64,000 bases of DNA from Takakia lepidozioides (Eukaryota; Plantae; Bryophyta): the NCBI GenBank assembly GCA_030704615.1, contig CM060733.1, forward strand, positions 60,698,001 to 60,762,000, in the 5' to 3' direction. The translations under genes were made by a program, and so were the position numbers. Position 1 is the stretch's first letter; each line of letters starts with the position of its first letter. Under the pieces are notes generated by a model. It was not told where the DNA came from. It made no database searches and saw only the letters and a program-made list of their open reading frames with translations. Below, in pieces: positions 5,888 through 39,504 of this stretch.

Positions 5888-5899
5888 TTGGATGTTATC

Positions 5900-12647: not shown

Positions 12648-12686
12648 TTTACCCCTCCCTCTCTCAAAAAGCCGTGTCCTCACGGT

Positions 12687-17914: not shown

Positions 17915-18440
17915 ACGTCGCAAACATGCGACGTATGGGGGTTGCGAGCCCCCGCCCCAACTCCCGTGACTGCCGGACGTCGATTTTTCAGGCCGTCCGC
18001 GCCGATGGCAGGGGCTTCTTCGAGCGACGTCTCGCCGTCGCGGCCCTCCAGCCGACGGCGTTGGTGGGGGCGCCGGCGCGGCATCGCATCCCTTTTTTTT
18101 TCTAACCTGCCCGGGAGTCCCATCCTAAAACCCAAAAACACGTGGCGTAAGCCGGGTGATACGCCAAGCAACGCCCGTGCGTCGCTGCAAGCGACTATTG
18201 GGCGTGGCAAAAAACAGCAGGAGCAGGAGTCGGTCTCCGCCACGCCCGAGCGTGGGTTGTTGCGACGCTTCGGTGTTGCTTTTGTTTTGAATTTAATATA
18301 TATAAAAGACGTGGCGCAGGCAGGGTGGCGGTCTCCGCGACGCCAGGGCGTCGCGGCTTGCGACCCCCGGACTAAAAAACACGTCGCAGGGGGTGGCGTG
18401 CTGCAGTCGCGAGGGCAGCCTGGTGGGGGGGTTGGGGGTT
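17915..18440. repeat. GC-rich CACTA-type subterminal repeat region lacking its own CACTA terminus
   Basis: Clustered gcgacg/cgtcgc inverted motifs. gtcgcaaacatgcgacgtatgggggttg resembles 7061-7088 and the 38960-39500 region. Confidence 0.65.
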
Positions 18441-18678
18441 GATTTTGGGGGTGAATTGGGGGTGGTTTTTTGTTTTTTGCCTGGTTTTGTATTTGGGGAT
18501 GGGAGACCTTACAGTTCATTTTCTCTGATTTAGCAGGTACACAATTGAGCAAGCATGAATCGAGGGTGAGGACGGTGCGACACATGAATAAGATGGAAGA
18601 TGGAAAGATGGAAATATTTTTACAGGAAATGAACTGAAAAGCTCTCAAGGGTTCAGTAGGCTGACCCTGGGACTAGGA

Positions 18679-20850
18679 CTAGTCATCCTCATCCTCATCC
18701 TCAGTGGAGGACTCAGAGCTATCCGATGAGCCTGATGACTCCGCGCCCTTTGCCAAAGCACGTAAATGAGGCGGCGTTCCCCTAAGTCCCATAGAGCTCT
18801 CATCCAATCCCTGGCCATGACCCTCAACCTCATCCATACTAGTGCCCTGTAGTGCATTCATCCCCTCTGTGTTGGCCATGTTCTTCATGAGGGATTGCCA
18901 ACCATGCTCCTTGGCGTAGTTGTACTCTACCGGAGATGGACTCCTCTTAAACGCGCGTAGCTACACATGCCACAAATTAAAGTTAGTTCTTCGCGATGAT
19001 GGAGCCAAAAAGAAGACATAATAAAATCCATAGGGAAGTACGACTTACAAATCGCAAGATAAAACCCTTGGATCCGCCGGTGCCCCACTTGTGTGTGGAT
19101 TCGTGCTTATCAAGGCGGACTGTTGTTGCTTCGCATGCCCGGTCAAATTTGGCCTTGTTTGCGGCATCAGTCTCTCCCGCAATGAGTGCATCCCACGATA
19201 CCTATGCACCCCTCCCCCCAACAATTAGTGAATTACACACATACGTTGCATCGAATCCACCTCATTAATGCACATGCAACAAATGGAAGGTGACATGATT
19301 CAAGATTTGCCAACCTGTGTAATTCCATAAGGTGGTTTGGGTATGGCCCCCTTTTCCGTTGCCCTCCGAATGATCTGTCTGGCACGGTACCTCCTGTCCT
19401 TCAAGTTTCGCCCCACCATCTCCATCACCCTTGTGTCACTCCAATTGCCTGGAAACCGGCGGTCTAACTCACGGGCATACGCCCGCTTTGCGCCAAAGTG
19501 CTGATCAGCCCACTCGATGTGCAAAGGGAACCACCTCAATGCGAGTTCGAAGGTTGGCTTCTTCATAGCCTCCCAGAACGCACCGCAGGGGTCACCATGG
19601 CGATTCAGCTCCACCGGTGGCACCACGATCTTTGCCAACTCCACGTCCTGTATCGCCAAGGCCATCCCACCCTCTCCCTTCTTTGTAGCCTCCTTCCCCT
19701 GCTCCTTTGTTACCCCATTGCCCTCCCCCGCATGCACACTCACCCCTTCCTCTCCATGGGACTTCTTTTTCTTCTTCTTCTTTTCCTTCCCATTCTCCAC
19801 GACCATCTCCTTTCCCTTCCCCACTACTTCCTCTCTCTCCTTCTCCCTCTCCCTTCTCTCTCTCTCTCCTCGGCATCCCCTTCATTGATGGTAAAAGAGA
19901 TCTCGGGAGATCGAGGCCTCTTCTTCTTACCTTTGGTGTTCAGGTCCTTCATGAACACCACGTGCTCTCCCTCATTGGCAACCCCACGGGACTGCACCAA
20001 TGAGGCCAGCCATGTTGCTGCCTCCTGAAGACAAATAACCCCTCCAAATTCAAAAAAAGAAACAAACAACAAAGAAAATCATGATGCAAAGGAAAGGATA
20101 AATCATGGAACAAGGTGCGACAGCTGTACCTTTGCAAGCTGTCCAACTCGCCCCTGGTGTCACCCGATGTGGGAGGAGTCCCCGTTTCCGGATGTGCCCG
20201 CTCTATCCCCTCCCGGAGCGCCACTAGAAGTAGATTGCAGATGTGGATCATAGCCGGCGGCGGCGGCGGCGCCCCGTAGTCCAGGCCCTTCTTTGCTGAC
20301 CGCTCAGGCTCAGGGGGCGGTGTCGCTGATCGGCTAGGCTGCTCCGAACCGGCCCATACCTCCTCCTCTCCCCCCCCCCCCCCAAATGCGTATCAGGGTA
20401 GAAGCCCTCACCTGGCTTGACTTCTTCGAGGCGCTTCGCTATCTTGGCCACTTCATTGGCCCTCCTCGTCTCCTCCTCCCTCATCGACAACAATGGGCTG
20501 GCAATGGAGGCATTCAAAGGCCCTTGAACTTGACGTTGGGCCTTGGCAAGTGCAGCCTTTGCTGCGGAGGAAGGGGTCGCTTTGGGGGTGACATCCCAAA
20601 GGTGCCCATACCGGGCCCCCGAACGGGTGATGTGCTTGCCAAGGTACATTTCACCCGTCTTGGTGGCCGGGGTGAGGGGGGGGTACTGGCCTCGGGGGCA
20701 GACGAGCCGTCCGGCTGTGGCTGTCGACAAGGCTGGTTAGCCGTGAGACGCCCTGGCGAGTCACACGTGCCGGCAGAGCAAACGGATTGTCCGCCCCTTT
20801 CTTTGGGGCACGGGACTTCTTCTCTTTCCCCATAAGCTGGCACCTGTCAT
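18679..20850 (-). CDS. CACTA TnpA-like accessory protein, multi-exon, probably degenerate
   Basis: Exon 19316-20025 (ELNRHGDPCG...WADQHFGAKRAYARELDRRF...GRNLKDRRYRAR...PPYGITQ) splices to SWDALIAG...THKWGTGG (~19050-19201). Acidic C-terminus. Lies inside the CACTA element next to subterminal repeats. Confidence 0.6.
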
Positions 20851-20979
20851 GCAAACCCACAAGTTGGCCTCATTAGGAACATTCCAGATCTAAAACAAAA
20901 AAAACCAAGCATGTCAGGGGCTGAGAGCAGCAAGTGCTCGGGGTCTCGAGAGGGGGCAACAAAGAGAAAAGAAAAAGGT

Positions 20980-21051
20980 GGGGGGGGGGGAGTGACTGAG
21001 CACCACCACCAGCTGCTGAGCACCACGGGCTCAGTCACTCCCCCCCCCCCC
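20980..21051. repeat. Inverted repeat / foldback (22-bp arms, 27-nt loop)
   Basis: G11-AGTGACTGAGC ... GCTCAGTCACT-C12, flanked by an A-rich arm on the left and a T-rich arm on the right. Confidence 0.85.
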
Positions 21052-21137
21052 ATTTTTTTTTTTTTGGTTTCCTGATCTCTCCCTCTCTTTGTCCCTCTCT
21101 CTCCCTCTGTTGTTGGTGGATCTACCCACTCAATGTA

Positions 21138-21563
21138 GTGGAGATCAAACCTGAGTTACTACGCACTAAAACCGATTCCCAATACGTGGGGTTGGAAGCT
21201 TGTTTCATGAATATCCAGATTACAGTCTCAAACAGTGACACAGGTGAGTTCCATTTCCAGAAATATGACAAGAGAAGACTACTCCCTTTCTCTTACACTC
21301 AATATATCCAGTTCTTATCCAATAGGCCTGTGAATCAATCTTATAACATTGTGATTTCACAAGCTGTGCCTATTCTATACATTTCCAGCAATGCTGATTT
21401 GGCTGGGAAGGAGTGTAGCATTCTGATTAACACTCTTGGGAGGAATGGTTTCAAGACCAGAAAACTTGCTCGTATCTTGACAAAATTCCTTGAACGTGGT
21501 TCATTCCCTGGCCTGTTCTTCCCTGTACAAGAGCTTATTGAGAAACTGAAAGGTACTTTCTAA
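21138..21563 (+). mobile_element. 5'-truncated Penelope-like retroelement fragment (RT thumb / C-terminal region)
   Basis: FMNIQI...FQKYDKRRLLPF...FLSNRP...YNIVISQ...LINTLGRNGF matches the YDKR-type PLE RT thumb. The ORF stops without a C-terminal GIY-YIG. Confidence 0.65.
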
Positions 21564-24543
21564 GAACTTATCCAGAGCTAAGTTATACCATTGAACTCTC
21601 CAATCTTTTCTAGTGATACTATACTAGTTTTGCTATGATACATTTTATGCCAACGTTTCATTCTTGATCCAAGGAAGTGAGGATGTAGGATTCTACTCCT
21701 TTGGATAATATAATATGAGGATAGAACTACATGAAAGAGGGAAAAACTTATGAGAAGAGGTCTGGTATGCACTCCCTTACGGGGTGAGTGCATACCACAC
21801 TCACTCCGTAAGGTTCTGCCATGCCAAGGGATTGGCTGGTGGGTCCCTCTCTCTCCCTCTCTCCTTCTCCCTCTATAACTCTTTGGATTTCATCTGGCCT
21901 TAACCTTTTGAGGTTATTTAGTTTTTCATCCCAACCTTTTTCATCCAAATCTGGATGATATTATTATAGGATGATGAAACTTAATGTACAGAAAGCTTGG
22001 TTTACCATCTATTTCTTTCATCTAAACTGGATGAACTACATGAATAATGGTTACCTATTTTAAAATCCAAAAGAATAATAAAACTACCATCATAAATGAT
22101 GGCAGTTATTAAACCTAAGCCTATACCATAACCCTAAAAGATACATTTTTATTGGATGTCATCCATTGACAAAGTGCTTCTCTTGATAAAATGTGATTTT
22201 TCATCCACCCTGGATGAGAAATCGGGAAGTTGTGCCCTAAGCAGGCCGACACATTTCACAGCACTGAACTCGTGCTTCAGTGAACCTTGATGATGCGCCG
22301 TGTAAACCTGCTCCCCTGCTGCTACATGGTACTCGTGATGGCTGGCTCTTGGGATGCGCATTGGCGGTTTGACAGATTCCTCTCTGGCAGACGACAACGC
22401 GATGATCGCTTTGCTCAGAAACTCATGGTTCTTTATTTTGCAGCGACGCTTTTACTCCTCATTGGGAAGTACTCTATCCCTATTTATCTACAGATTACAT
22501 GTTGCTCTCTTTTTGTATGAGCCATTCTCTATCTGTGAATGCTTCTACTTTGATTGCGTTCTGTTGGAGACGATCTGTTGGACGCCATGGCGCAGGGCAT
22601 ACCACAAACACTCAAGGTTTTTTGAGTTTACCCTTGCTTGAATTGTGATCTGTACATGCTTTAGAATTCAACACTGACATGGATAGCAACTGTGAAGACC
22701 TGCCACTCACCTGCTGCATCCTCACTAACACACATCGCTATGTGGTGGTTTTTGGGACGGGCACAGGTGAGGGTCTTCACTTGTCTTGATTTCTTGAAGC
22801 TTGCAGCTCCTGTTCTTGCAAATGTGGATACTGCTACTGCCTAAGCTGCTGATGCCATTTGCTGTTTCAAACTGCCACCATGCTGCTTCAGACCTGCTCC
22901 AAGATGGCTCCAATGAGGATCTGCTTCTCTCCTTACCCCTGTTTTTGGTTTTTTACAACCACATTTGCATGTGTAGGAGTTAAGCTATGAAGGGTACAAG
23001 GGTACAAAATAGCAATTATTACTCTGACTGCTCTGATACTTGGCTCTGAAATGAAACTTCTTGGTATGACTTTGATGGATCAAAAGGATAGGCTCTGATA
23101 GATAACACACATTCTTCAAGGCCCTCATATCATTTTGGTTTCATGGCTTGATAATAAACAGGGTTCTGATCTGCTCTTTCACCTTGGCAGAACTATTTTA
23201 TGAGGCCTTAAAATACCATTCTAGGCCTATACCTGCTTAAGGGGGCTCAACCCTGTTGTTTCTTCTTCCTTTTTAAGAATCTTGCTTGTATCTTGGTTCT
23301 GAAACATCAACTTCAAACCAGTACTGTTTCTTAGGGAAGTGAAATGATCAAGACCTGGATTTTGTTTGCCTTGGCCCGTTAAAGACTCTCAATTTAAAGG
23401 CCTGGCTGCAGGCAGGGTTCTTCTGAGTTTCTTTGTTAACTCAGATCTTTGGAGGTTCTAGAATACCACTCAAGACCTAGATCTGTTTTGGAACACTCAA
23501 CCTTGCATAGGTTTCATGTTTGTGGTTTGGCATTGATACATCACCAAACTAGCTTTGGAACGAAACCTCTCAGCTTGACTCTGTTGTGTCAAACAGGTAC
23601 GCCTTGTTTAGGGAACACACACACTCATTAAGGCTCTCATAGCAGTCTGAATTTGAGGGCTGATAGCAGGCAAATTTGAGATAATTTGCCTTGCTTCTGT
23701 TTTATGATTCCTGCTTGTGACACGACACTGAAACGTCACCTTCAGGCCAGCAATAGCCTCTAGGGAGAAGACTTGTTCAAAACCTGGATGTTGGCATGCA
23801 GCCTCATGATATATACCATGTCTTTAACCATGCCAATAGGGCAAGAGGAAACATGATGTAAACCAGCAAATGCTTAAGGCATATTTGTTTGAATGTTTCA
23901 AACTCAACTTGAATTGTTTTTTAGCATGAGTCTTGGGGACTGTCCCAAGACCTGCAATCTGGTTTTCACAACTTGTTTTGCTAAGGTGTTGTGTCTACTT
24001 GCAAATACTTAAGGCATGAATGGCTGGCTGTTTCAACTTGAAGTGCTATGAGCTTGATTCTGGGAAATATCCCCAAACCTGCAATCTGGTTTTTGAAATG
24101 AGTTTGAAATGAGGTTTTGAAATGATGGTGCAAACTATGGTGCTTTCATGATATGATTGACTTGGAATCCCACCCTCCCACCCTGTTTTTTCAGAGACCC
24201 TGAAATGTAATGGGGTATTCAAATGAGATTGTAAACATGAAAGGGAATGTTAGATGGTGCCCTGTAAAGGGCTGTTTTGTCTTTCAATGACAATGACCTT
24301 AGCGGTCTTGTCCATGTCTTGACATGACATGTATATCTTCCCTCTCTTTATCTGATCAGTGTACTTAGTGGTTTTTGTACACACCATCTACCCTTACCCT
24401 TCTCCTTTTCACCTTCTCATTTTGATATATTGACAAACGTTCTCGGGGGGCCTTGACAGAAAGTCACCAAAGGAGGTCCTAGCTGGAATGAGGACCTCAT
24501 AGCCCTGGGGTATCAGTCCCCACTACCTCCTCCAATTCCTGTT

Positions 24544-25371
24544 GTGCAGGCAACCCTCGCACAAATCACACCAAGTGACTTCCATGCTGCATTGCAAAAG
24601 ATGGATACTGAGGCCTTGGAAAATTCAGGTGATGAAAACCCCGTGTTACTACTTGAAACCTTGGCTTTGGAAAATTGGGTTGCACTTGGCATCATGGCAA
24701 ATAAGAATGGCAGGTACCTGGAGAAGCTCCAGGAATTCAATACTAAAATGATTGAGGTACTGGAAGATGATGCCGAGGAGCTGATACAATGGGAAAAGAA
24801 GGGATCAGCCATTGAGGCAGCTCTTAGAATGGCAAACCCAGAAGATGACCAGACTGTCTCTACGCAGAAATCTGCAAACACATCTGAAAAAGACTTCATC
24901 CCTTCTGTAAGTAATCACCCAATCCTTGGGCACATGATTTTACCGGATGAAGAAAAAGAGGCAGTGAGAGAATTCTGTGAACAAGTAGAAATCTCACAAG
25001 TGGAACAAGAAAGGGCAGCAGGTGCCACTCCTGGAAATCTGCAGTTTGTCCCTTGGTTGCCTCCCCGTGCAGTTGAATTAGAGGTTGCCAATAACGACCA
25101 CATGATGTGGCACCCACATGCTAATATCAACTTATTGGCACCCATTTCTATTGAAATGTGGGTCAAATGGGGCAACATAACTCCTGCTGAACGCAATAGA
25201 TGTGCACATGATGCTAAGGAGGGAACTGATTCAAGTCCTTTACTGTTTGATCTGAGTTCCATATCTCCAGCCACCTTATTTTTGTTTGTGGGTCGACCAT
25301 CGATATGGCCAGCCGGTGCAATTTCTCCTGCTGCATCTCCGGATGCACATGCTTGTCATAGTGTGTTTTGA
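24544..25371 (+). CDS. Orphan acidic, predicted helical protein; converges on and overlaps the ParB-like gene
   Basis: 275-codon open frame with protein-like composition over the first ~225 aa. No motif recognised. Confidence 0.4.
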   Translation: MQATLAQITPSDFHAALQKMDTEALENSGDENPVLLLETLALENWVALGIMANKNGRYLEKLQEFNTKMIEVLEDDAEELIQWEKKGSAIEAALRMANPEDDQTVSTQKSANTSEKDFIPSVSNHPILGHMILPDEEKEAVREFCEQVEISQVEQERAAGATPGNLQFVPWLPPRAVELEVANNDHMMWHPHANINLLAPISIEMWVKWGNITPAERNRCAHDAKEGTDSSPLLFDLSSISPATLFLFVGRPSIWPAGAISPAASPDAHACHSVF

Positions 25372-26510
25372 TCTGCTGAAGGAACTCAGAACCAAGTCCA
25401 GGATCTACTATTCTAAGCTGCTTTCCGAAGGCGGACATCAATTTGGTTCTTCGCATTTCAAACTCCTTCTTTATTGCAGCTTCCACACCCTTTGATGTCC
25501 TTAGTTCCTCTGGTGTAGTGCGGTAATATTCGGATTTTCCCTTCTCAGCTGCCTCTGCCAGTTTTTGCTGCATTGATTCAAGTAGCGATTAGCACCGAAG
25601 GGACTACAAACATGTATTCAAAAAGTAAACTGAGTACAGACTCGGGCTTACCGCATACATGTACTCCAGAAACGCCTCTCGTGTCAAAGAATACCAAGTG
25701 TCTGCAGCTCTTCCTGTTTCGCACTTCTTGATTATATTAGGTGGGAGTACTATCCGAAAATCATCCAGCTTCATCAGACCAATCCTCTGAATTCGGAATA
25801 GTGTGTGGACCAAGCTTGTTGTCACATGCGATTTCTCTGTCGTTCTGCAAAAACATTGGAAACATTGCATTCCTTAACACTGTTTTTTGGGGATTAATAA
25901 GACACTACAGAGGGAATGAAATCTCCTGGATGACTTACTTGTTCACGTCGTGCATAGCTGTAAGAAGCCTAGCGATGTCGTTTCCAGGATCCAAAACCAT
26001 TGCCTCCACAGCAACATGCTTGTCTTTGTCTTTCGCATGGTGTTTCTGAATGTATCCCATCCATGCCAGCAATCGGTGGTTGTCGTCCCAGACGTAGAAC
26101 ATGTGATTGCAGAATTGCTGGGTGTTCTTTCCCATCATGAGGCCCAGCTCGAACTCCTCATTGGCATCTTTCCAGCACTCATCCCAGATATCACTGATCT
26201 CTGGAGACACTAATGTGCTTTTCCCATTTATATCCGTCAGTGACACATAAAAAACTTGTGCAACAAGTCTATATCCATGCACAAAATCACTCTCCAATTT
26301 TGTTATGTCATGGGAAAGAGGTGGATGCACAACAGGCATTGATATCATCCGGCACAGAGGGATGTCCAGACGCCCTCCAGATACGAGCATGTCCCTTATA
26401 ACCTCCTGAGAGTTTACCTTCTGGAATGACATGAGTTCTTTCACCTTGTCAAGGTAGTGCACTTCAATCAGCTTTGCTTGTGTAGATTGTGCTGAATTGT
26501 TTCACACCAT
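25214..26510 (-). pseudogene. ParB/sulfiredoxin-like domain protein, spliced, with premature stops
   Basis: VVHPPLSHDITKLESDFVHGY...FYVS...MFYVWDDNHRLLAW, where DDNHR at 26073-26087 is a variant of the ParB DGxHR motif. GT-AG introns at 25938-25845 and probably 25651-25604. In-frame TGA at 26502-26504 and TAA near 25590. Confidence 0.7.
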
Positions 26511-26717
26511 TCATAGTGAGTTTCTTTGAGACAAAGTGATGGTCGTTACCGCCGTTCACTATTTGCATATTACTCAGTCAGAATTGAATGGCATCGTGCA
26601 GAAAACTGTGAGGTCGAAGCCTACAGGATCAGAGGGGAAAAGATCTGGAGATGGGGACGAGTCCGGAAAAAGCTCAGAGAATACAGATGAAGCTCAATAA
26701 AAAAAGAACCTATTGCT

Positions 26718-27550
26718 GTGGCATGGCCACTAAGGACCTTCTACTACAAGCTCTGTGACAAAGGTGAGAACCTTACCTTGAGGACCAAAAATGACTTGCC
26801 GACTGGTTCGGCCAGATCCAAAAATCACAAGAGTCAACTCTTCAATTGGCATCGTCCCTTCATAAGATGTAACTGTGGACAAGGAGGGGCACCCTCTTCT
26901 TGCATTGGGAGTGTTGCTTGGTTTGACCATATGGTATGGTATATGCTGAACAATCTGATTGTGTTCTTCCCTGATGATGCCTATCCTTCGGTGCAAACCA
27001 AGTATTACAGCTTTCTGGTGTGGATCATGCGGGCTGCCAGATCTGCTGCACTGGCACAAATTACCTTCCACATGACCCGGGGGTTCATAATGGAAGCAGC
27101 TTGTGAATTCTCAATTGACCCCCAAGCCAAGTTGCTTGCGAAGTTAGGAGAATCCAAGGGGGCCAGATACATTGAGAAACTTGTGAAACCTGGGTCTTTT
27201 TCAGACAGCCTTCCCAGGCCACAATTCAATAGCTACAAACGGCAACGTATGGAGGGGATTTGCAGCTTGAAAAACGCGCCGTCATTGTGCTGGATCAGAC
27301 TTTGAAAGACTTGAACATTTTGATTGTTTCCCCTCCCCAAATGTCATTGGAGGCATACATAAGGAAGTGGAGAGGTCTCACCTGGAGATATTGTTTTTTC
27401 CGGGAGTTCTCCAAAGATGGTAACATTTTACGGTCCAACGACTTTGACAGTCAGGTTGGAGGAGAGTGGGCCATGATGCGAGTTGTGTATAGGTGCAATA
27501 TCATACTGGAAACTCTACTGCACTTTTTGAGAAATAATAAGGCTTCATAA
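26718..27550 (+). pseudogene. Orphan ORF, frameshifted near 27260-27300, divergent from the ParB-like gene
   Basis: Overlapping ORFs 26718-27305 and 27260-27550 with protein-like content (RCNCGQGG...CIGSVAWFDH). Ends immediately before the palindrome array. Confidence 0.45.
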
Positions 27551-27572
27551 GGATTGTAATCATAGATCCAAA

Positions 27573-28981
27573 TTGAATGTCGTTGACGACATTCACTTCT
27601 TTGTCTGAGTCATTCTTAAGCGAGAATTTGAATTCACCTGGATTAGGAGCTTAGGGTGTATTTATAGTGTCCCTGATTAGAATTGATAATGTCCCTGAAT
27701 GGCGTTGACGACATTCACATCCAGAGTTGTTAAGAGGTCCTCAGAGATATGTAAGTTTTTGTAATGTCCATAGAGTTTACAGTGAGGGTTCCTCACTCCA
27801 GTTTGTTGAATGTCAATGCAGACATTCAGTTGTTCTGCAATGCTTTTGCCTCTTGCGAGAAATCTTAAGGCTTGATTAGCTGTGTTATCAGAAATCCAAA
27901 GTGAATGTCGTTGACGACATTCACTTCTATGTCTGTGTCATTCACCAGCAACAATTTGAATTTACATGGATTAGGAGCTTAGGGTGTATTTATTGGTTCT
28001 TTGTTCGGAATTTTGTGAATGGCGTTGACGCCATTCACATCCAGTGTTATTATGAGGTCCTCAGTGTTATGTACGTTTTGAATGTCCATTGAGTTTTTAG
28101 TGGGGGTTCCTTACTCGAGTTTCTGAATATCGTTGCCGACATTCAGTTTCCATCCAATGATTTTGCCTCTTTTGAGAAATCATTAGGCTTGATTAGCAGT
28201 TTATTCACAAATCCAAAGTGAATGACGTTGACGACATTCACTTCTATGTCTGTGTCATTCCAAAGCGAGAGTTTGCATTCACGTGGATTAGGGTGTATTT
28301 GCAGTATCATTGAATGGAATTTTTTGGATGGCGTTGACGACATTCACATCCAGAGTTGTTAAGAGGTCCTCAGAGATATGTAAGTTTTTGTAATGTCCAT
28401 AGAGTTTACAGTGAGGGTTCCTCACTCCAGTTTGTTGAATGTCAATGCAGACATTCAGTTGTTCTACAATGCTTTTGCCTCTTGCGAGAAATCTTGAGGC
28501 TTGATTAGCTGTGTTATCAGAAATCCAAAGTGAATGTCGTTGACGACATTCACTTCTATGTCTGTGTCATTCACCAGCAACAATTTGAATTTACATGGAT
28601 TAGGAGCTTAGGGTGTATTTATTGGTTCCTTGTTCGGAATTTTGTGAATGGCGTTGACGCCATTCACATCCAGTGTTATGAGGTCCTCTGTGTTATGTAC
28701 GTTTTGAATGTCCATTGAGTTTCTAGGGAGGGTTCCTTACTCGAGTTTCTGAATGTCGTTGCCGACATTCAGTTTCCATCCAATGATTTTGCCTCTTTTG
28801 AGAAATCATTAGGCTTGATTAGCAGTGTATTCACATATCCAAAGTGAATGACGTTGACGACATTCACTTCTATGTCTGTGTCATTCCAAAGCAAGAGTTT
28901 GCATTCACGTGGATTAGGGTGTATTTGCAGTATCATTGAATGGAATTTTTTGGATGGCGTTGACGACATTCACATCCAGAG
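27573..28981. repeat. Higher-order tandem array of 14 x 24-bp palindromes GTGAATGTCGT-TG-ACGACATTCAC
   Basis: Copies start at ~27573, 27695, 27806, 27901, 28015, 28123, 28218, 28324, 28435, 28530, 28644, 28749, 28844 and 28950. Three spacer types form a ~315-bp unit; two units form a ~629-bp unit. Confidence 0.92.
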
Positions 28982-29383
28982 CTGTCGCGTGGTCCTGAGA
29001 GCTCCTTGGAGCAGTTCTCAGAGCCATTTCATTCCTTGTTTTTTTCATTCTGTGCTACTTGCATCTTACTCACTTCGCGCTTTGGTGGGTTGGGATTTAT
29101 CTCCTGTTTAACAAGTACACGAAATATGTGCTTATGGAAGGAAATCACCTGAGCGGTATTCCAGACTATCTTGACATGTGGTCAGACCCACAAACGATCC
29201 AACCATGTATACTGCAGGGATATTGAAGGACTGGAGTCCTCCTCACTTCATATACTGTGGCTGGTACCTTGACTGCCCACCGGAGCACACGACCTTTCAA
29301 GAACAACACATGAAATATTTGAACAATAATGTTGAGATGTTGGCGCCTCTGACTGACGAGTAGTACCAAAGAAACATAGCAAA

Positions 29384-30954
29384 TTGGCTGCCAAGGAGCC
29401 TGATGCTCAGGGAACGCCGCAGAAGGGAAAGAAGGCGGGCCGCAAACCAAAAGACAAGGCTCCTGATGTCATAGCCATCTCACCAGCAAAGCCAAAGGAC
29501 AAAGACAAGTCCAAAGAGAAGGAAAAGGAAAAGGACAAGGGGAAGGAGAAAGAAAAGGAGATGGAGAAGGAAAAGGAGAGTGGGCAGGACTTCATTGCTG
29601 GAAGATATACCCGCACAGTTCAGTGCGTGTTCGATGCCGCACCCTTCCAGTTCTGATTTGGCAGGAGAGATTAAAATTGTCAATGAGGTTTGGCTGGCGA
29701 TGATGCAGAGTCGAAAGAGAGGATACACTGGGGTGCCTTCGCCTACCTGGGACAACATAATCTCATTCCTCAATCTGGTGAGAATTCCAGTTTCTTTCCT
29801 TTTTCTCTGAAAGTTTCATTGGCAGTATTTCAGTCTGGTTCTTTGAACACATTCTTGCCATCGTTCTTAAAATAAACATGTCTGTTGCAGGTGAGCACTG
29901 GTCCCACCTTCGTGTGCGGTGTGCAGAAAACATATGCGGCTGACATTGTCATTCTCGATATCCCGGATGGCCAGCCTGTGCCAAAGGTTCTTCCAAAGGG
30001 CAAGACGCTAGGCTGGAACAAATTCGAGGACAACTACTGGAGCTGGGTGTTCGGGTTCTGTAATAATTTCCTCTCTGATGCAGGGACACTTCTGCTTTTT
30101 CAGTCATGTGACAAAGATAGTCGTCGGTCATTGGCATCATACTTGAAGTCTTCAGGGTTTGAAGTTTTGCGCACATGGGATTGTGTGAACAGCCTCTACT
30201 TTGTGAAAGGGGGTTTCCCTGGTCAGCTGGTATGCCATCTCCCTTCTGTTTGTGCTTTCATGGTGAGTTTCAATGTTCTCTGCAGCTCCACTCTAGAAGA
30301 ATCTGTCATGATCGACACCGATCATCACCGATTCGTGATAAAAATGATTGTTTTATGCCTGAGTTCTGAATAGCCGGTGTACACACTTCTACTATAGATT
30401 GTGTTTACCACACTAACCTGCTATCTTTGGCAGACAAGGATGTTCGAGGCGATCTACTTGCGGAGGATTCGCACCTCAAAGACACCATCCTCCATCCGTA
30501 GCTTTGAGATTTCTGACCAGGGTTGTTTCGTCAACCCCCCCTATGAGCCGCATGTCGATGATATTTTGTACAACTTCATGCAGTCTAGTCAGGCTCTGAA
30601 GAGACCAGATGGCACTCCCTGGAGAGGTGCAAAGGAAAAATCCCCTGCGTTCATGCAAATACTGCTGGAGTCATGCAGCCACCACTCTGCACGGGTGGTC
30701 GATCTTTCTGTGTCCACAGGTTCGTTCTCTCCCTTCCAAATTGATTTTCTTTCACCAGTTCCATCTGCTTAAATCCCCCCCACCAAACTGTTCATGTCCT
30801 CCTGTCTGGTGCAGGAGCAACTTACCATGCATGCAAGGCAGGCGGAAGAAGCCTTTTTGGCATGGAGGGTGATTCTGACCTCTACAACACAGTGCTCCTC
30901 CCCCTTTTGTCTGGCTCCACTTCAGGCACACAGACTGATCGGATTCAAATTTGA
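29384..30954 (+). CDS. Beta-class N6-adenine/N4-cytosine DNA methyltransferase-like gene (N6_N4_Mtase type), intron-containing; 5' end uncertain, possibly degenerate
   Basis: Exon 29891-30229 carries a motif IV-like ADIVILDIPD and FLSDAGTLLL. Exon 30434-30719 (WRGAKEKSPAFMQILLESCSHHSARVVDLSVSTG) splices in frame to 30815-30954 (ATYHACKAGGRSLFGMEGD), giving motif X/I-II after motif IV. A K/E-rich region lies upstream (29384-29656). Confidence 0.78.
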
Positions 30955-32172
30955 AATGATGACGATCCCGAAGATAAGCAGGTTGACAATGACTTTTCAT
31001 GTGCGTAAGTGCTAAACCCACTTTGGGAGCCATACTCAATTTCTCAATAACATCAAAGTTACAGTAATAATTTTTTCAGGCTGTCTTTCAGGAAAGGCAG
31101 CGGTGGATCTTCAGGAGATACAGTCATTTGTGGCGAGTCTGTTTTTCGACAGCCCCCTTTCCAATTTTCTGCTTCCTGATTATGCCGAAGCAATGGCACT
31201 TCACGCGGCCGAGTCCCTATCCCCTGACTTTTAACTGCCCGGCCGTAGGTGTAGCCAGCGTAGATCCGGAGTTCTTAAATACTTAGACTTAGATGCAGAG
31301 GAAGCGGGGATACATTGTATTGACTCTAAGTCAGACTGAACTATGTTCTTTTAATATTTTGTTTCATCCTCTTTGGAAAACGTTGAATCCCCTTCCTCCA
31401 CCGTAGTTGTTCCTTTGGAAAGAAAAATAATCAAAGAATCAACTACCATTTAAATTGCAATATGTATGAATCCATCTCACAAACCTCCCTCACTCTTGTC
31501 ATATCCATTTTGCTTTCATCTACAGTGTATTCATGCGTGCTCCATTCATTAATGTTTTCCTTTGTTCAACATCCATTGTACATTCATCCTCTGTACTCTT
31601 TAATCCACCCCACAAACCTATCACACTCATGTCATATACGTTGTGCATTCGTCTAAAGTTTTAGTCATGCATCTTCTTGTCATAAATGTTTTCCATTGTT
31701 CAACAACCATTATACATTCATCCATTTGACTCTTCTCCATCCCTCATTCATCCATCTACATTCATTTTTCACACTCATCCATATGTTTATCATCCAACTG
31801 TACATTCATCCATCATTTATTCATCTGTTGCTTTCAGGTGGGAATGACCATTGCCTTTTATTATGTCGTCCAGCTTGTTTCCGCGGTAAAGGGTGCCAAT
31901 CCGCGGGAATACACTCCACTTCTTCCTGGGCGCGTGGTGACGCGGCCTTCAAGTGTGATGACGTGGAGTGAGCCCCGTGATGTGGCATTGGCGCAAGGTG
32001 ACGTGGCGTGAGCGCAGTTGCGCTCACGCGCTCACGTGACCAGGCTCACGCCGAGGCATCCCTGGTCCAACCACATCCACCTTTGACCCCCCCGACAGGA
32101 TTGAGTGTTGGTGCACTAAGTGTTGGGAACGGATACCGCCGGGCGGCACCAGACCACCGAGGCGGCGACCGC

Positions 32173-33432
32173 ATGTTGTCGAAAAACATTACAAGAAGAA
32201 CAAGATTGCGGATGCGGCAAAGGTGAGTGTTTTTCCCACCTCTCTCATTAACATTCATTCAAGGTACATTTAGGTTTATCTAATAATATAGTATGATTGG
32301 TAAGCATACATGAATCAAAATTATGACATAAGTATTGATGCGTCGTTCACTACGCACATTGCAGCCACGACTTGATGCCCAAGCTCGCAATCACATTGCA
32401 CAGGAGGCATTTTGCGCCGGATTACTTACAGAATTTGTGCCAGAGCATGTGCCCGATGTGACCAATTGGTTCCCCCAGCAGCACGTAGATGAGATGCGTA
32501 GGGTCGAGGGGTATCGTAGGTGTCGTAGGTGTTATGGCCGGCGACGAGCAGCCCCCCCCCCCCCCCTGTTTCTTTGCCTAATCGGCTGCACCTCCGACAT
32601 TACATCCTCAACCACCTCCACTTTCATCTCCTCTGCCAGCAGTACCACCTCCACCTTCACCACCACCACCACCTCAACCTCCACCTCCACGTGCATGTGC
32701 CCCCCGAACCCCTAGGAGGGGTTGGCTTTGCCCTAGGTTTCCTCCCCTTCGGCTTGGGCGGCCTGAGCCGGATCCTCGCCCCCGATGGGAAGCGCATATG
32801 ACTATGTTACTAAGGACCGTCCAGCCTCGTTGTTGGGGGAATCATCTCGACCCTCCCACCCCCATCCGAGAAAATGTGGAGTTCGAGTATTGGGGAGACG
32901 GTATGTTGTGAGAGCCGCTACAGACCCTGCTATGGGTTGGGGTTTATTCACGGTCAATGATATTGTGGTTCCTCCTTGGAGAAACAGCATGGTGGACTTG
33001 TTTCCTTACTACGGTCCATACTACACCTCCGCGGAGTTCCGTACATTACGCCTCGAAGCCCCATACATCCTACCCTATATTTCGTGTGTCAACGGACAGG
33101 ATGTACGTAGACGGGGGTTGTCTCCTATTGAGGTCAGATTTTGTGATGGTGACCCCGACATCTTCAGCAATGTTGTTGGGCTGGTCAATAGTTCTTTTGG
33201 TCATCCTAGGATAACCAATGTAGTATGGGACGAACGAAGCGATGGGCATGAGAGCTTTTGTGGTCATACGTCAGTATACTGTGAGGGGATGCACATGTTT
33301 GTGATGAATGTGCTAGTAGGACTATTAGGGCTGGCAGCGAACTATTTGCATCATACGAGTTCTCCCGGGATGATTGGGACCTCCGATTACAGCGTGAGTA
33401 GGATGTGTATGATAGAAATAGGGTTCCTTTGA
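32173..33432 (+). pseudogene. SET-domain (lysine methyltransferase fold) protein with Pro-rich N-terminus; frameshifted
   Basis: YVVRAATDPAMGWGLFTVNDI...LFPYYGP...Y...DGDP...NVVGLVNSS...NVVW follows the SET pattern GxGLF...YxG...xxN(H/S)S..N. Putative first exon 32173-32222 with a gtgagt donor. Confidence 0.65.
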
Positions 33433-34421
33433 GACAGGGATCGCGTAGAGGGGCATTATAGATATCCTCATGATGTATTTTGTATACATCCGATTAATCG
33501 ATTGATGTAAATTTTTTTCTTGTTGCTCGTGTGGGTTGCAACTTTGCATATGTGATCTAAACATACTTATGCACATGTGGACCAAATATGAGCTTGAACC
33601 AAGTTGATTCAATGGGTCATTCTAGTGTTGAACGCAGTTACGTGTCATAGAGACGGAAAATTGTGTTTCGCCTACAGATGATTTTTTTTAATTCCATTTT
33701 CAAGTCATATGCTTAATGATAGCATATGCAATGTGCGTGCAAAATTTGGGAGTAAACAAAAGTCATTTGGACCCATAACCAGATTTTGTTTTCTCATTTG
33801 CACTCCAAAATTGAGTTATCTTCAACTTTGTGCACTCTTCCTAGAGAGTTCTGCAAAAGTGACCCTAGAAACACACTTATTTTTTTTCCATTTTTTGCAT
33901 GGATGTAGTGGTGCAAAGCTCGATGTCACAGAATAAAATAGAGCTAAAAATAAAATCATTACGCCCCTCAAAACCGCAATCATATATTTTCTAAATGTAA
34001 ATATTTATTTTAAATTCATTTAAATTCGATTTAATTCAAAATTGGTGCAAGGGTGAGTGCGTCGTTGGGGAGACAATTAATTTTTTATTTTTTTTTAATT
34101 TTTTTTTAAATTTTTTTATTTTTACCTGCTGGATTTTTGTACAGGTGTTGCACACATATTTAAGCACATGTAGGAAAAAATGAAGCTTGAGCCACATCCG
34201 TTTGTTGGGTGCAATGGCATGAGAGGATTTTCTTTCACATTAATAAACAAAAATTGGTTGATAGGGTGAATGCGTCATTGGGGGGGCAAATGATTTTGTT
34301 TGGGTTTGAAACTTTGCATGCGTGTACGTTGCGCACATACATGTAATTATTGAATGACATATTTGATGCACACACACATTGAAGGTTGTTGTTTGCATTT
34401 CGCTTATAATGAAGTGTATGG

Positions 34422-37400
34422 TTGCAAGGACACATTATAATATATGTCCCTATGTTCATTTGTTCGTATCAGGACTTTGTCCATCCCTTCCCGGTCTTTT
34501 CTCTTGGCACCCCATCCGAAAACAACCCAAGTACATCAGGCGGGAGCCGTGGGCGAGACGCCGCCCCCACGGTACCGGACGATGATGACGATGACAGTGA
34601 TAGTGACAGTGACAACAACAATGAACATGGAATTAACCAGGAGGATGTGCAAGCCATGGAGGATCTCTTCATGCATCATGTGGGCGCTGATGCATCCCAT
34701 GAAGAGGGAACCCGACCAATCGATGATCCTGAAATGGCCCCCTCAAATGACATGGAGAGGGAGGCGAGAACTCTCTTGTACGAAGGGGCGAAAGTGAGTC
34801 GACTTTCAACAATCTTACTTTTGCTCAATCTTCAAATTCGATTTGGCATAAGTAATGTTGGGATGTCTGCCATAATGCGAACTATTGCAAACTATATCCT
34901 TGCTCCACACTTGAAACCCAAGTTGCCACGATCGCGGAAAGAGACGCGCGAAGTCTTGGACTCTGTGGGGATGGGCTATAAGATTTTTCATGCATGTCCA
35001 TGTGATAAAACCCTATATTACGGAGAGGATTCGCATTTCACCAAGTGCCCAAAGTGCAAGAAAGACCGATATCGGGATGATGTCCAAGGGAAAAAAGTAC
35101 CACGCAAGGTATAAGCACCATTCCCCCTCGCATGGAGATTATTAGAGAGTAGTACTCATGCAAGATCTGATTGTGGTTTTGGAAGGAGTGAGTGAGGAGT
35201 GGAAGGAGCGACGTTTGGTTTTGACCATTTACACCCAAATGAGGGAGAAGCTGCATAAAGGGAAAGACATAAGGGTGTTGTATTATGTGTGCTAATGGGA
35301 TGATTACATGTGGGGGGCGTGGGGTATTTCATCCTAGAAAATGCATTACTTTCCGATCATCCCGCGATTGAGGGCACAGCACCGAAGCCCCGAATTGGCC
35401 AGACTCATGAGATGGCACGCCTCGCATCGGAGCCCCCCGAGAAAGGTGTGCGGGCCACAAGATTCACGAGCATGGAGGCATATTGAAGAGATGTGGCCTT
35501 TTCTCTTGGAGGACCCACGACATGTCCACCTCGGCTTCTCCTCGGATGGGGTCAACCCATTCTCTGTCCAGTCATGTAGTCATTCCACTTGGCCGGTGAC
35601 CATGGTGAATTACAACATCCCTCCGTATCTTTCAATTAAAAAAGGTCATATCATGTTGGCTGCCATTGTGCCAGGTGAGTGTACTCATTTCATGTTTATT
35701 ATTGCCTTCGACTTTACATTAACTTCTGATCTTTGACGCAATTCGGATGCAAGATTGATGAGTGACATAATCATGGAGTAAGACGTGTAATTCATTTTGT
35801 AGTATAATCTGCATATTGATGGAGCATTGAAACAATGATATAAATGTCTCAAAGGGAAAAAACAAGTGGCAAACATGGACACGTACTTGCGACCTCTTGT
35901 TGATGAACTTAAGAGCTATGGAGGGGGGTCCGGCATTGGATGCTTCACTTGACCCTATGGCCGGACAATCTTTTCAGATGAGAGACATCTTGCTTTGGAC
36001 AATGCATGATTATCCAGGTATATTATGTTCCCCATGAACAACCCGCGTACATTCACTTGTCAATGCCGGATGAGGATGAGGATTGGGATTGATTGAAGTA
36101 GCGGCGACAGTCTTGTGCACCGTAGTGGGATAGATGGCATTATGGGCCATGCACATGACAACTTTTTGTTTTTGCTAATGTGGCGGGATGTGTAGTACAA
36201 GACTAACTGTTTGCTTGGGGCTAAGCACCAAAGGGTACCATGCATGCTTGCATTGTGGCGATGATTTTGATGCACATAGCTCCCGCCATCTTCACAAGAT
36301 GGTGTATCCTAACTACCGCAAATTTCTTCCTATGAGCCATCGATGGAGAAGAAGAGAGAAACACTTGTTTGATGGCAAAGAGGAAGTACGTCCCCCCTCT
36401 ATGACACCGTCCGGGCAGTTTTGGGAGGACCGATGGAAGGAGGCCCATGCGGGCACGGACGGTGAAGTGGACGTGCCCGACATGAAACGACTTTCAATCT
36501 TCCACGAGTTGCCATATTGGGCGGTACATATTCCACAAAAACACCGTCAATATCCCTATGCATGCATGTGATATTGCACATTTGGTATGCGTTGCATTGT
36601 TACTTTCACGTAAATTTTTTTGTGTAAGTCTTTGTGGGTGGGGATATATGTAGGACCTGAAGATTCACCATCTTCCAGATCCCATGCATATTGAGAAGAA
36701 TGTCTACTCGTCATTTTTTCGGGTTCTTCATGGCACGCCGGCAAAGAAGGGAGTGGCTGCAAAAAGAGATTCTCTCGGTGTTAGAAAGGAGCTTGAGGAG
36801 CAGGGTTGCATACGCCATCTATGGGCCGAACAAAATTGTGTGGACCCAAAGGGTGTTGTACGGTGGAAGTATAGGCGCGCACCTTGGCAATGGACAAAGG
36901 AGGAATACAAGAAAGTGATAGCCACCATAAGTGCTGTCCGAACACCAACTGATTATGGGTCATCCCTCCGTACGAAGTTCAGCGAAGAAGACGGGGTCCA
37001 TGGTTTGAAATCTCATGACTACCACAATCTATTGCAAGACATCTTACCCATTGCAGTACGTGGGACATTGACTCCCGAGGTTCGTGAGACAATCTATAGA
37101 TTGGGAGGCTTGTTCTGGTGGATTTGCTCCAAAGAGTTGGAAGAAGCAGATTTTCCACGCATGAAGAAGGAGGCGATGGAGGTAATATGTATGTTGGAGA
37201 TGCACCTCCCTCCCTCCTTCTTTGACATCCAAGTGCACTTGGTAGTGCACTTAGTGGAAGAGGCTTCGATTGTCGGCCCCGTTCATTCTCGGTGGATGTA
37301 CTTCCTTGAGCGTTATATGAAGACTTTGAAAGGATTTGTAAGACAAATGGCGCACCCGGAGGGTAGCATGGCGGATGGGTATACGTTGCAAGAAGCTATG

Positions 37401-38623
37401 TTCTATTGCACGGAGTACATGGCAAGGGTGGATGAGGAATCCCCTCGGATGTGGAAGGAAGAGGAGGATGCATGAACCAATGACATCGTTTTGCCCAAAA
37501 AATCGAAGAGGGTAAAATTGCCGACCTTGGTGATTGAGCAAGCGCATGACTTCATACTGGAGAACACCCTATCCATACATGAGTGGGAGGCAAGATATAA
37601 TAATTTTGTTTAGCAACGAGAGGAGGAGATGCTTGCATGGAGGCGGAACCATCCAAGGCCAGTTACTAGACGCCCACGACGAGGAGCGTTCGGAATGTTC
37701 CTTCACAAAATTTGCCCATGGAATTGCAACCTCTAAGTTCATTCCAACAGTGGCTTCGGACTTCAGTTTATGACGCTGTTGCTCAAGGAGAGGTGGTTTC
37801 AGATTTGGTGCAAGACATTGCAAAGGACCCCTCTCAATTCGCAACCTCATACACGGCGGTTTGGGTTCACGGTCGTCATTTCCGCATTCGTGCTCTTAAC
37901 ATGAAGCGCAAAACAACCTTTGATTCTGGCTTGTGTGCCACATATTGGCAAGACTCCGTGTGGGGCAAGAGAGATACACGACCTGCTATGAGCAAACTTG
38001 AGTACATTGGAGAGTTTGAGAGCATACTCCAACTTCAGTATACAAGGTACCGGCCTCTTCTCTTCAAGGGAAGGTGGTTCCAGCCACATCTTGTGGAGCC
38101 TTCCGCAACACTAGTGCAAGATGATTGTGGTTTCATGCGTGTCAATGCAGATAGGCTCAACCCTACTCATCGTCCCTCCGATGAGCCTTTTTCACGGCCT
38201 TCAGACATGGAGCAAATTTTCTTCTCCGATGACAAAACAAGAGGGGGGAATTGAAAGGTGGTTGTGCATGCTCAGCCAAGAGGAAGACGTATCTATCATG
38301 GTCTCGGATCTCCATGGGGTGAGGCAATTGCGGTGGACGGAGAGACTGGTCATAATGATGCTGATGATGGAGGTTGGGTAGAGGGGATAGAAGAGGATGA
38401 TGACGCCCCGGACAATGCATTCTGGACCCTATATGATGAAGCTCAAGAAGATACGGATGTTGGAGAAGGAGACGAAGACACGGCCATTGACAACGAGGTG
38501 GAGGATGATTCGGAGGTGTCTTTTGAGAGCCGGGCCATTTATGACGATGACTCCGATGACGAAGAAGACTTGCAGCTTGATGAGGATGAAGAGGCTCCGG
38601 ATGATGATGTTCAAGTTGAATAG
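34422..38623 (+). pseudogene. tnpD: CACTA transposase TnpD (tnp2 / Transposase_21 with DUF4218 and DUF4216), spliced, with premature stops
   Basis: HACPCD..LY...CPKCKKDRY; HYFPIIPRL...DGVNPF...STWPV..NYNIPP; MHIEKN...GLKSHDYH...PPSFFDIQVHLVVHL...GPVHSRWMYFLERYMKTLKGFVRQMAHPEGSM; YIGEFESILQLQY...LFKGRW. In-frame TGA at 37473-37475 and 38252-38254. Confidence 0.93.
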
Positions 38624-38934
38624 ACACAAAATCAAAGCTACATAACAATTCTCGCACCGAACTGGACCCATCCCTTCGATTGATTGTACATGTACATGCA
38701 TATTGTACTTTATTTCTATGATTAATCAAATATGGCTGTGGCTGGTAGTCTATCAAGAAAGAAGGCAGATGCAATGAATATATTGGAGCAACACATACAG
38801 ATGTGGTATCAAGAGAATTATCAAAATGAATGTCACAATGTACAAGAAGGTCCACAACAACAAGCTAAACCATAAAGAAAAACAAACACCCTACACCAGT
38901 ACCATATGAAAAAAAAAAAAACTAAGAACCCCCA

Positions 38935-39504
38935 AAGGCCCTAACCCTAAACCTAGAAAGCCCTGCCGTCGCCGCCTGCGACCCCCACGCGTCGCAAACT
39001 GCGACGCGTTTTCTTGGATTTATGAGGCTGGGGGTCGCAAACGGCGATGGCCAACTGTCGCCAATTGCGACCGGTTTTTTGAATGGATTTATGAGGCTGG
39101 GGGTCACAAACGGCGACGGCCAGCCGTCGCAAACTGTGACATGTTTTTTTGTTTTGTAAGAATAGGGCAGCCGGGCAGTTTGCGACGCCTGTCCGTCGCA
39201 GGGGCCTTTTGCCCTTCATGCCACCATGCGACGGCCGGGCGTCGCAAGAAAGGGCTGCAATGAAAGAGAAGGCAAGAAATGGTTTTTTTTTTCCCGGCGT
39301 GCGACGACCGGCCGTCGCCAGAAAGGGCTGCCTTCTGCCCTTCGCTGGGGGCGACGCGTGGGCGTCGCATGGGAGGGCTGCCATTTTCGCTTCATCACTC
39401 TGTGCGACAGCCAGGCGTCGCCGCCTGGCCCCGACGCCAGGTTTCACTCCCGCGTGGTTTGGCTACGGGGTTGGCGTTGCAAACCCCCCCCATTTGCTGT
39501 AGTG
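38935..39504. repeat. Internal CACTA right end: subterminal repeats plus TIR
   Basis: ccctaaccctaaacc, then clustered gtcgca/tgcgac repeats, ending AAACCCCCCCATTTGCTGTAGTG at 39504. Confidence 0.85.

What the first reader, a model, noticed from the sequence alone, without database searches (positions are those of the whole stretch)
27573..28981. Array of 14 phased 24-bp palindromes with a compensatory change, next to a ParB-like gene
GTGAATGTCGT-TG-ACGACATTCAC recurs every ~95-122 bp, while the three spacer classes show no obvious similarity to each other. The palindrome is therefore the conserved unit. The copies at 28015 and 28644 read GTGAATGGCGT-TG-ACGCCATTCAC, changing both arms and keeping symmetry. 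CpGs persist in the palindrome although nearby genes show CG-to-TG decay. Inference: parS-like or iteron-like binding sites for a dimeric protein, a methyltransferase target array, or a hairpin-punctuated RNA.
Basis: partly seen in the sequence, partly recalled or inferred. Interest (0 to 1): 0.82.

Follow-up and report, generated by a model that had tools for sequence, protein, structure and literature searches.

The report
Palindrome array inside ParB-methylase transposon gene
Fourteen copies of a DNA palindrome sit in a predicted intron of a broken ParB-like/methylase-like gene of a many-copy plant repeat (likely a DNA transposon) and are likely docking sites for that protein, a self-marking design already proposed for seaweed transposons but, in the papers found, never tested.

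Summary
The array is real: 14 palindromes at 27573-28973, built as (A,B,C)x4.7 with a recent 629-bp duplication. The shared core is TGAATGTC-N6-GACATTCA. Arms stay 13-16/16 identical across classes whose spacers are unrelated. Two claims shrink. The 'compensatory' copies are one event, duplicated. The spacing is regular but not helically phased.

The array is not merely next to a ParB-like gene. It lies in a predicted internal intron of one ParB-fold + methyltransferase-like gene, between the two halves. Relatives keep the same exon order. This copy is dead: its ParB part is inverted and its motifs are mutated. The region is a many-copy repeat of a land plant with one hAT-like end; no transposase was found.

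Best reading (0.6): family-specific binding sites for the element's own ParB-methylase, which would mark its copies, in the manner of VANC. Binding and methylation are untested. The design was proposed in 2025 for red algae (ParB + inverted-repeat arrays) and brown algae (ParB + N4/N6 methylase). This scan found it before on other DNA, there with the array in the first intron. New here: the internal-intron position and an exact site.

The parts
27525..28985 (.). Tandem array (A,B,C)x4.7, period 314-317 bp, with a 629-bp higher-order duplication; 14 palindromes with core TGAATGTC-N6-GACATTCA, spaced 95-122 bp
27493..29114 (+). Predicted internal intron (about 1.6 kb) that holds the array. GT at 27493; the acceptor is altered in this copy, while other family contigs end in a T-run plus CAG before 29115
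   Evidence: sequence; loose end at 29115 in 12 contigs of X1; exon homology on both sides in L003-L005 with a gap of about 180 bp and no array. Splicing not observed
27258..27492 (+). Coding exon of the ParB-methylase gene just upstream of the array
   Evidence: tblastn to L005, 26% over 80 aa, E 1e-7; high-depth segment; an X5 contig bridges 27461-27624 into the array
25938..26466 (-). ParB/sulfiredoxin-fold domain exon, inverted relative to the family; conserved R47 and G128 are changed (H, D) in this copy
   Evidence: 452 relatives at E<=0.001; model pLDDT 93.8; top structural matches KorB, PadC, Noc, ParB, Srx; joint 26466/26693 on opposite strands in X1, X2, X5; column counts
25221..25870 (-). 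Two exons after the ParB domain (candidate DNA-binding region, fold not tested), inverted together with the ParB exon
   Evidence: tblastn to L001 and L005; BLASTP to Adiantum P0051, E 3e-4
26467..26693 (+). End of the upstream intron with two degenerate palindromes (26493, 26537), plus the N-terminal start of the ParB exon, in family orientation
   Evidence: PWM scores 8.5 and 10.8, within the range of chance hits elsewhere in the window; joint to 26466
26694..27257 (+). Low-depth foreign segment lying where the inverted ParB block sits in the family; ORF of unknown kind
   Evidence: X1 depth 28-65 in bins 26776-27245 against 3,500-16,000 on both sides; no Pfam or PHROG match
29115..29800 (+). 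Coding exon(s) after the array, frameshifted, with a K/E-rich linker
   Evidence: tblastn to L005, 40% over 35 aa, E 1e-5; indels against family contigs at 29190 and 29382
29876..31213 (+). Methyltransferase-like exons, beta-class order by recalled motifs (D-I-P-D motif IV first, motif I later)
   Evidence: Atlas: all 10 best family-bearing hits share a family or clan with the best (MTS), N6_N4_Mtase clusters at 0.84-0.85, lead level; PHROG methyltransferase E 0.011 and DNA methyltransferase E 0.16; P0051 carries ParB and this region in one predicted protein; no Pfam match
31850..32064 (.). GC-rich subterminal region and candidate right end; reverse complement begins CAGGGATGCC (hAT-like by recall). 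No matching left end or TSD found
   Evidence: summed depth drops from about 3,500 to about 530 across the bin edge at 32217

Best explanation
The array is a set of 14 dyad sites (TGAATGTC-N6-GACATTCA) in a predicted internal intron of a ParB-fold/methyltransferase-like fusion gene of a many-copy plant repeat (likely a DNA transposon), and these sites are likely the docking sites of that fusion protein, which in intact copies would load there as a dimer and mark the element's own DNA. Shown: the array, its nested duplications, arm conservation across unrelated spacers, colinear exon order in relatives, the exon-array junction in another sample, the ParB/Srx fold of the model, and the breakage of this copy. 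Inferred: splicing; that the C-terminal part is an amino-methyltransferase (6mA more likely than 4mC from a D-type motif IV, by recall); that the repeat is a transposon; that the protein binds the sites; CTP-dependent spreading as in bacterial ParB; and an anti-silencing effect. Tandem duplication multiplied the sites (monomer, then ABC trimer, then 629-bp hexamer), as described for VANC targets. This copy cannot make the protein but could still be a target in trans.
For: Arms are 13-16 of 16 identical between classes whose spacers do not align. Within classes, arms differ at 3 of 48 positions against 46 of 237 in spacers (p=0.034). Two palindrome deviations of this copy (28851, 28953) carry the consensus base in nearly all laid family contigs. 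Mismatches fall on one arm and are tolerated (pair 5 broken in 5 of 14 copies), which fits half-site tolerance better than a hairpin. 4 of 6 palindrome CpG columns are fixed, against 0 of 6 spacer CpG columns. The dyad occurs nowhere else in 64 kb. All 8 structural matches at Z>=5 are ParB/Srx-superfamily proteins. One-strand exon order from ParB to methyltransferase-like parts in L003-L005, and both in one predicted Adiantum protein. Both distinct related loci carry their own, different palindrome repeats in the intron upstream of ParB (spacing 115-120 bp in L004, 112 and 83 bp in L001). Published parallels.
Against: No binding, methylation or expression data. No transposase, left end or TSD was found. 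The methyltransferase call rests on weak hits; Pfam is negative, and motif IV here ends in D, not an aromatic residue, so activity even in intact copies is open. The ParB structural scores are middling (Z 7.5; Foldseek best E 0.015) and cover the N-terminal fold, not a DNA-recognition domain. The arm boundaries were chosen from the same data, the test rests on three pairs, and the whole 22-bp core gives p=0.064. No helical phasing. The relatives' palindromes have a different build (about 46-52-bp imperfect dyads). No listed contig bridges the right-hand array junction with 31 or more letters on both sides.
Confidence: 0.6

Rival explanations
1. The dyads are protein-binding sites, but for another protein (the element's transposase or a host factor), and the ParB-methylase gene merely hosts them.
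For: Conservation and symmetry do not name the binder. The DNA-recognition part of the fusion protein was not identified.
Against: The array lies about 3 kb inside the candidate right end, which has its own GC-rich subterminal region. Related loci also keep palindrome arrays inside this same gene, in another intron.
Confidence: 0.17
2. A neutral intronic tandem repeat. A palindrome-bearing monomer was amplified, and hairpin-templated repair keeps the symmetry and produced the 'compensatory' change.
For: Nested recent duplications. The compensatory change is one event. The outer pairs differ by class while staying symmetric (3 pairs with changes on both sides). The within-class test is marginal.
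Against: Self-correction keeps symmetry but, by inference, should not hold the arm sequence fixed while spacers lose all similarity. Many mismatches stay uncorrected. Independent arrays recur in the same gene in relatives.
Confidence: 0.12
3. A hairpin-punctuated RNA processed from the intron.
For: Each copy can form a hairpin (-5.7 to -17.8 kcal/mol as RNA). One trimer folds at z -3.6. Covariation score reached by 3 of 500 shuffles.
Against: Any palindrome folds. The spacers alone fold no better than shuffles (z -0.4 to 1.1, 7 of 7). Pairs with two-sided change are no more than shuffled (151 of 500), and 17% of cells are unpaired; the rows are closely related, which inflates covariation. No Rfam match at E<=1.
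Confidence: 0.07
4. The dyads are site-specific recombination sites (arm-6bp-arm, as in tyrosine-recombinase sites, by recall) that shuffle the element.
For: 8-6-8 to 11-6-11 geometry. This copy is rearranged.
Against: The mapped breakpoints (25221, 26466/26693, 27257) are not at palindromes. No recombinase among the ORFs scanned.
Confidence: 0.04

Closest known systems
Plavaka accessory gene PAG3 of Bostrychia (bioRxiv 10.1101/2025.02.11.637652; passages read)
   Same: A ParB-like gene in a eukaryotic repeat element with a tandem array of inverted repeats beside it; the authors propose that the protein binds and modifies its own transposon.
   Different: PAG3 fuses ParB to a putative 2OG oxygenase, and the methylase is a separate gene (PAG2). 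Red alga, Plavaka/EnSpm carrier. Here ParB and a methylase-like part are one gene, the array is in a predicted internal intron, and the host is a land plant.
Accessory gene of Sola1-1_Ec32 in Ectocarpus (PMC12477816; passages read)
   Same: One protein with a ParB-like domain and an N4/N6 DNA methyltransferase domain in a DNA transposon; self-binding and self-modification proposed.
   Different: Brown alga, Sola1 transposase. The word 'palindrom' has 0 occurrences in the main text (supplements not read). Sequence homology to that protein was not tested here.
VANDAL/VANC anti-silencing system of Arabidopsis (PMC5735166; passages read)
   Same: Element-encoded protein, family-specific motif multiplied by tandem repeats in non-coding parts including introns.
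   Different: VANC binds non-palindromic 9-bp motifs and causes loss of 5mC. Binding is shown there and only inferred here. No ParB or methyltransferase domain was seen in the passages read.
Bacterial ParB-parS (abstract starts in search listing)
   Same: ParB/Srx N-terminal fold; clustered palindromic sites.
   Different: parS is a 16-bp site in a three-part ParABS segregation system. This site is 22 bp or longer with a variable 6-bp centre, lies in a plant intron, and the protein is fused to a methylase-like part.
DAM-carrying retrotransposons (bioRxiv 10.64898/2026.05.21.726589; abstract and term search)
   Same: Transposon-borne prokaryote-like adenine methyltransferase linked to 6mA on the element.
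   Different: Retrotransposons. ParB, land plant, moss and tandem each have 0 occurrences in the text.

Membership tests
Transposon ParB-methyltransferase accessory genes (Sola1-1_Ec32 type) | ParB-like domain | tested here: met
   Model pLDDT 93.8; 8 of 8 matches at Z>=5 are ParB/Srx superfamily, best Z 7.5, rmsd 2.7, 90 aligned; Foldseek top ranks Noc/ParB but best E 0.015
Transposon ParB-methyltransferase accessory genes (Sola1-1_Ec32 type) | N4/N6 DNA methyltransferase domain in the same gene | tested here: inconclusive
   Same gene supported. Methyltransferase identity only by weak hits and recalled motifs; Pfam negative; single-exon model unusable, pLDDT 43
Transposon ParB-methyltransferase accessory genes (Sola1-1_Ec32 type) | Carried by a DNA transposon (transposase, TIRs, TSD) | tested here: inconclusive
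   Thousands of divergent contigs lay on it; one hAT-like end at 32064; no left end, TSD or transposase found
Plavaka PAG3 system | Tandem array of inverted repeats with the ParB-like gene | tested here: met
Plavaka PAG3 system | ParB fused to a 2OG oxygenase, in a three-gene PAG cassette | tested here: not met
   The C-terminal exons give methyltransferase-type leads and no oxygenase match
Bacterial ParABS / parS | 16-bp parS palindrome | tested here: not met
   The conserved unit is 8-6-8, 22 bp, with a variable centre
Bacterial ParABS / parS | ParA ATPase partner | tested here: inconclusive
   None among the window ORFs scanned with Pfam; not every ORF was scanned and no genome is held
Bacterial ParABS / parS | Helix-turn-helix site-recognition domain after the ParB fold | not tested
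Bacterial ParABS / parS | CTP binding, clamp closure and spreading | not testable with these tools
   The family keeps a G-N-H-R motif (G 59, N 64, H 58, R 56 of 64 rows), similar by recall to the ParB/Srx nucleotide motif
VANDAL/VANC | Family-specific motif in tandem repeats in non-coding parts of the element | tested here: met
   the dyad has no strong match in L001, L004, L006
VANDAL/VANC | Sequence-specific binding and loss of 5mC over the element | not testable with these tools
   Only indirect: CpG retention in the palindromes
CRISPR-like repeat-spacer array | Unique spacers between constant repeats | tested here: not met
   Spacers recur in three classes at 78-100% identity
Known structured RNA families | Match to an Rfam model | tested here: not met
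   0 matches at E<=1 in 24000-33000

The most novel reading that the evidence does not exclude
Land-plant DNA transposons run a eukaryotic version of the ParB-parS sliding clamp as a self-addressed epigenetic writer. A CTP-dependent ParB dimer loads at a family-specific dyad array, slides over the element and writes 6mA or 4mC, shielding it from 5mC silencing. The array is a movable module, first intron in some families and internal intron in this one, and each family has its own address; here it is TGAATGTC-N6-GACATTCA.
Probability: 0.3. Interest if true: 0.8.

Novelty: new variant of a known kind. Interest (0 to 1): 0.5.

Why it matters
[quoted passage not shown] The algal ParB accessory genes are only proposed to do so. 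This family supplies an exact, short candidate site and a high-copy substrate in a land plant, a group described as having few N6A methyltransferases (PMC4738411, passages). That makes the proposal directly testable by binding assays and long-read modification calling. If true, it would be a compact, sequence-addressed DNA-marking module of bacterial origin working in plant chromatin. The window's copy is dead, and the scan has met the same design many times on other DNA, which limits how much this locus adds.

Tried and rejected
Word-index protein searches found nothing for the ParB exon (longer forms) or the first methyltransferase-like exon (longer and near lengths); these are weak negatives. 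Pfam found no ParB family in 65 of 65 aligned members, and PDB sequence search found nothing. The Atlas search of exon 30434-30724 gave no family. The single-sequence model of exon 29897-30229 had pLDDT 43 and was not used for a fold search. The exact 24-mer has 0 matches in viral contigs. No RNA holder listed, which is no evidence on expression. Helical phasing was rejected. A hAT-like remnant upstream in L004 is a recalled resemblance only; Pfam was negative, and the loci could not be searched as genomes. The idea that the adjacent CACTA element is the carrier is unresolved: its side has much lower summed depth, which suggests nesting, but depth is no copy number. No binding prediction was run. 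Literature searches for a land-plant report found only the algal and retrotransposon papers; the library lacks most subscription journals, and supplements were not read and may list plant examples.

Full report
Context. The window is eukaryotic plant DNA. Pfam finds RPN7, an F-box/kelch protein, a LINE-type reverse transcriptase and CACTA transposase pieces (Transposase_21, DUF4218) at 35.3-38.3 kb. Named relatives of the ParB-like domain are fern (Adiantum) proteins in 6 of the 10 clusters looked up. The host is likely a non-flowering land plant; it was not identified. No genome is held.

The observation. Fourteen palindromes lie at 27573-28973, 95-122 bp apart. The dyad pattern has 14 hits in 64 kb against 0.15 expected. 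The array is a tandem repeat of a 314-317-bp trimer of spacer classes A, B and C. Units 2-7 are copied as units 8-13, 629 bp on, with 99% identity over a 300-nt block. The two 'compensatory' copies are therefore one event: all 5 B units have the left-arm G, 2 of 5 the matching right-arm C, and this pair is broken in 5 of 14 copies. The shared core is 8-6-8; the outer pairs differ by class but stay partly symmetric (3 pairs with two-sided change, no more than shuffles give, 151 of 500). There is no helical phase among the 7 non-duplicated intervals.

Is the palindrome the conserved unit? Between classes, arms are 13-16 of 16 identical while spacers do not align (z -2.0 to 1.8 in 16 of 16 comparisons). 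Within classes, over three non-redundant pairs, arms differ at 3 of 48 sites and spacers at 46 of 237 (Fisher p=0.034). For the whole 22-bp core it is 6 of 66 (p=0.064), and the arm limits were picked from these data. CpG O/E is 1.42 in palindromes and 0.33 in spacers; 4 of 6 palindrome CpG columns are fixed against 0 of 6 in spacers. Among the 40 of 140 variant rows shown, the two inside palindromes (28851, 28953) show the consensus base in nearly all family contigs. The evidence favours constraint on the arm sequence, moderately.

Where the array sits. Contigs from public runs lay on the region in thousands, at 90-99% identity (X1: 23,946 on 13 kb; 4,416 on 2.8 kb), so this is a many-copy family; summed depth is not a copy number. 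High-depth parts are about 25.2-26.7 kb and 27.26-32.2 kb; 26694-27257 is low. A joint links 26693 to 26466 on opposite strands in X1, X2 and X5 (two samples), and loose ends mark 25221. So in the family the ParB block runs in the same direction as the rest, and this copy has it inverted, by a real rearrangement or an assembly error. A metagenome scan gave 6 loci, which collapse to 2 distinct ones. In L003-L005 the window's pieces fall on one strand in order: ParB exon, next exon, 27260 exon, 29115 exon, three methyltransferase-like pieces (the last two weak, E 0.05 and 0.4) and a tail (E 0.08). The Adiantum protein P0051 holds the ParB domain, the next region and the methyltransferase-like start in one chain. 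Between the 27260 and 29115 exons L004/L005 have about 180 bp and no array; the window has 1.6 kb, opening with GT at 27493, filled by the array. An X5 contig of depth 94.5 bridges 27461-27624, so exon-then-array is a family feature. Family contigs end in a T-run plus CAG before 29115, where this copy has lost the AG. The right-hand junction has no listed bridge with 31 letters on both sides. Both related loci instead carry different, longer imperfect palindromes upstream of the ParB exon, and the window's dyad has no strong match there. Array position and sequence thus differ between families while the gene stays the same.

The protein. The ParB-like exon has 452 relatives. Its model (65 sequences, pLDDT 93.8) matches KorB, PadC, a ParB-N domain, SerK, sulfiredoxin and SbnI: 8 of 8 hits at Z>=5, best Z 7.5. 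Foldseek ranks Noc and ParB first at weak E-values. Pfam does not see it. Family-conserved R47 and G128 are changed in this copy. The methyltransferase call is weaker: Atlas leads at 0.83-0.89, PHROG E 0.011 and 0.16, and recalled motif order. Motif IV reads D-I-P-D here and D-V-P-F in P0051. A candidate right end at 32064 resembles a hAT terminal repeat (recall). No left end, TSD or transposase was found. CACTA pieces flank the block, with an end at 39504.

Mechanism. I commit to a self-addressing module (0.6). The fusion protein, likely a dimer through ParB, binds the dyads, may spread as bacterial ParB does, and would write an amino-methyl mark on the element that helps it avoid silencing. 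Tandem duplication multiplies the sites. CpG retention could reflect protection of bound sites or plain selection. Binding, catalysis, splicing and effect are all inferred. Rivals: another binder (0.17), neutral repeat with self-correction (0.12), hairpin RNA (0.07), recombination sites (0.04; breakpoints are not at dyads).

Comparison with what is known. The Bostrychia preprint reports tandem inverted-repeat arrays beside the ParB-like PAG3 gene and proposes self-binding (passages). The Ectocarpus paper reports a 1104-aa ParB + N4/N6 methyltransferase accessory protein with the same proposal (passages). VANC is the tested case of motif arrays made by tandem repeats (passages). The Marchantia 4mC preprint (passages) and the adenine-methylation review (passages) gave no match to this arrangement. 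It works like these systems; it is not a parS/ParABS member, a PAG3 member or a CRISPR array. My searches found no land-plant report; supplements were not read. Earlier unchecked notes of this scan describe the same design in other genomes (177 findings held my search words; 8 shown, most with Sola-like carriers and several placing the array in the first intron) and a 'shattered' copy elsewhere in this genome. They led me to test for a fusion gene and an intron, and are not counted as support. Sequence look-ups found no look-alike window.

Verdict. A real feature and a new variant of a proposed, untested kind. Interest 0.5.

Noticed in passing
window 25221-27257: The ParB block is inverted and displaced, with a low-depth foreign segment in its place; three junctions.
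   Followed up: partly
window 24457-25220 and 26694-27257: Two + strand ORF pieces of low depth with no Pfam or PHROG match; possibly halves of one unrelated gene split by the inverted block.
   Followed up: partly
window 26493-26560: Two degenerate copies of the dyad about 43 bp apart near the end of the upstream intron, where relatives keep their arrays; possibly relics of an older array position. Scores are within the chance range.
   Followed up: partly
window 27937, 28079, 28566, 28705: Lone half-sites of the dyad inside spacers.
   Followed up: no
L004 8900-9550; L001 9400-9680: Two alternating long imperfect palindromes (about 46-52 bp), period about 117 bp in L004, upstream of the ParB exon: a different address in related families.
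   Followed up: partly
L004 4742-5500: Degenerate ORF pieces that resemble a hAT transposase by recall, 4-5 kb upstream of the ParB exon on the same strand; no Pfam support.
   Followed up: partly
window 17900-20700 and 32100-39504: CACTA-type pieces on both sides of the block, with Tnp2 domains and a terminal TAGTG at 39504; another such end at 42134 and a CACTAC start at 6910.
   Followed up: partly
window 20967-21062 and 21000-21560: A G-run/C-run hairpin, followed by an ORF resembling the C-terminus of a Penelope-like reverse transcriptase (recall; no Pfam match).
   Followed up: no
window 31469-31734: Two 134-bp tandem copies in the 3' region of the element.
   Followed up: no
window 12690-16512: A run of long minus-strand ORFs without a clear Pfam match, with low CpG, flanked by 10-bp microrepeat tracts at 12.3-12.5 kb and 17.0-17.1 kb.
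   Followed up: no
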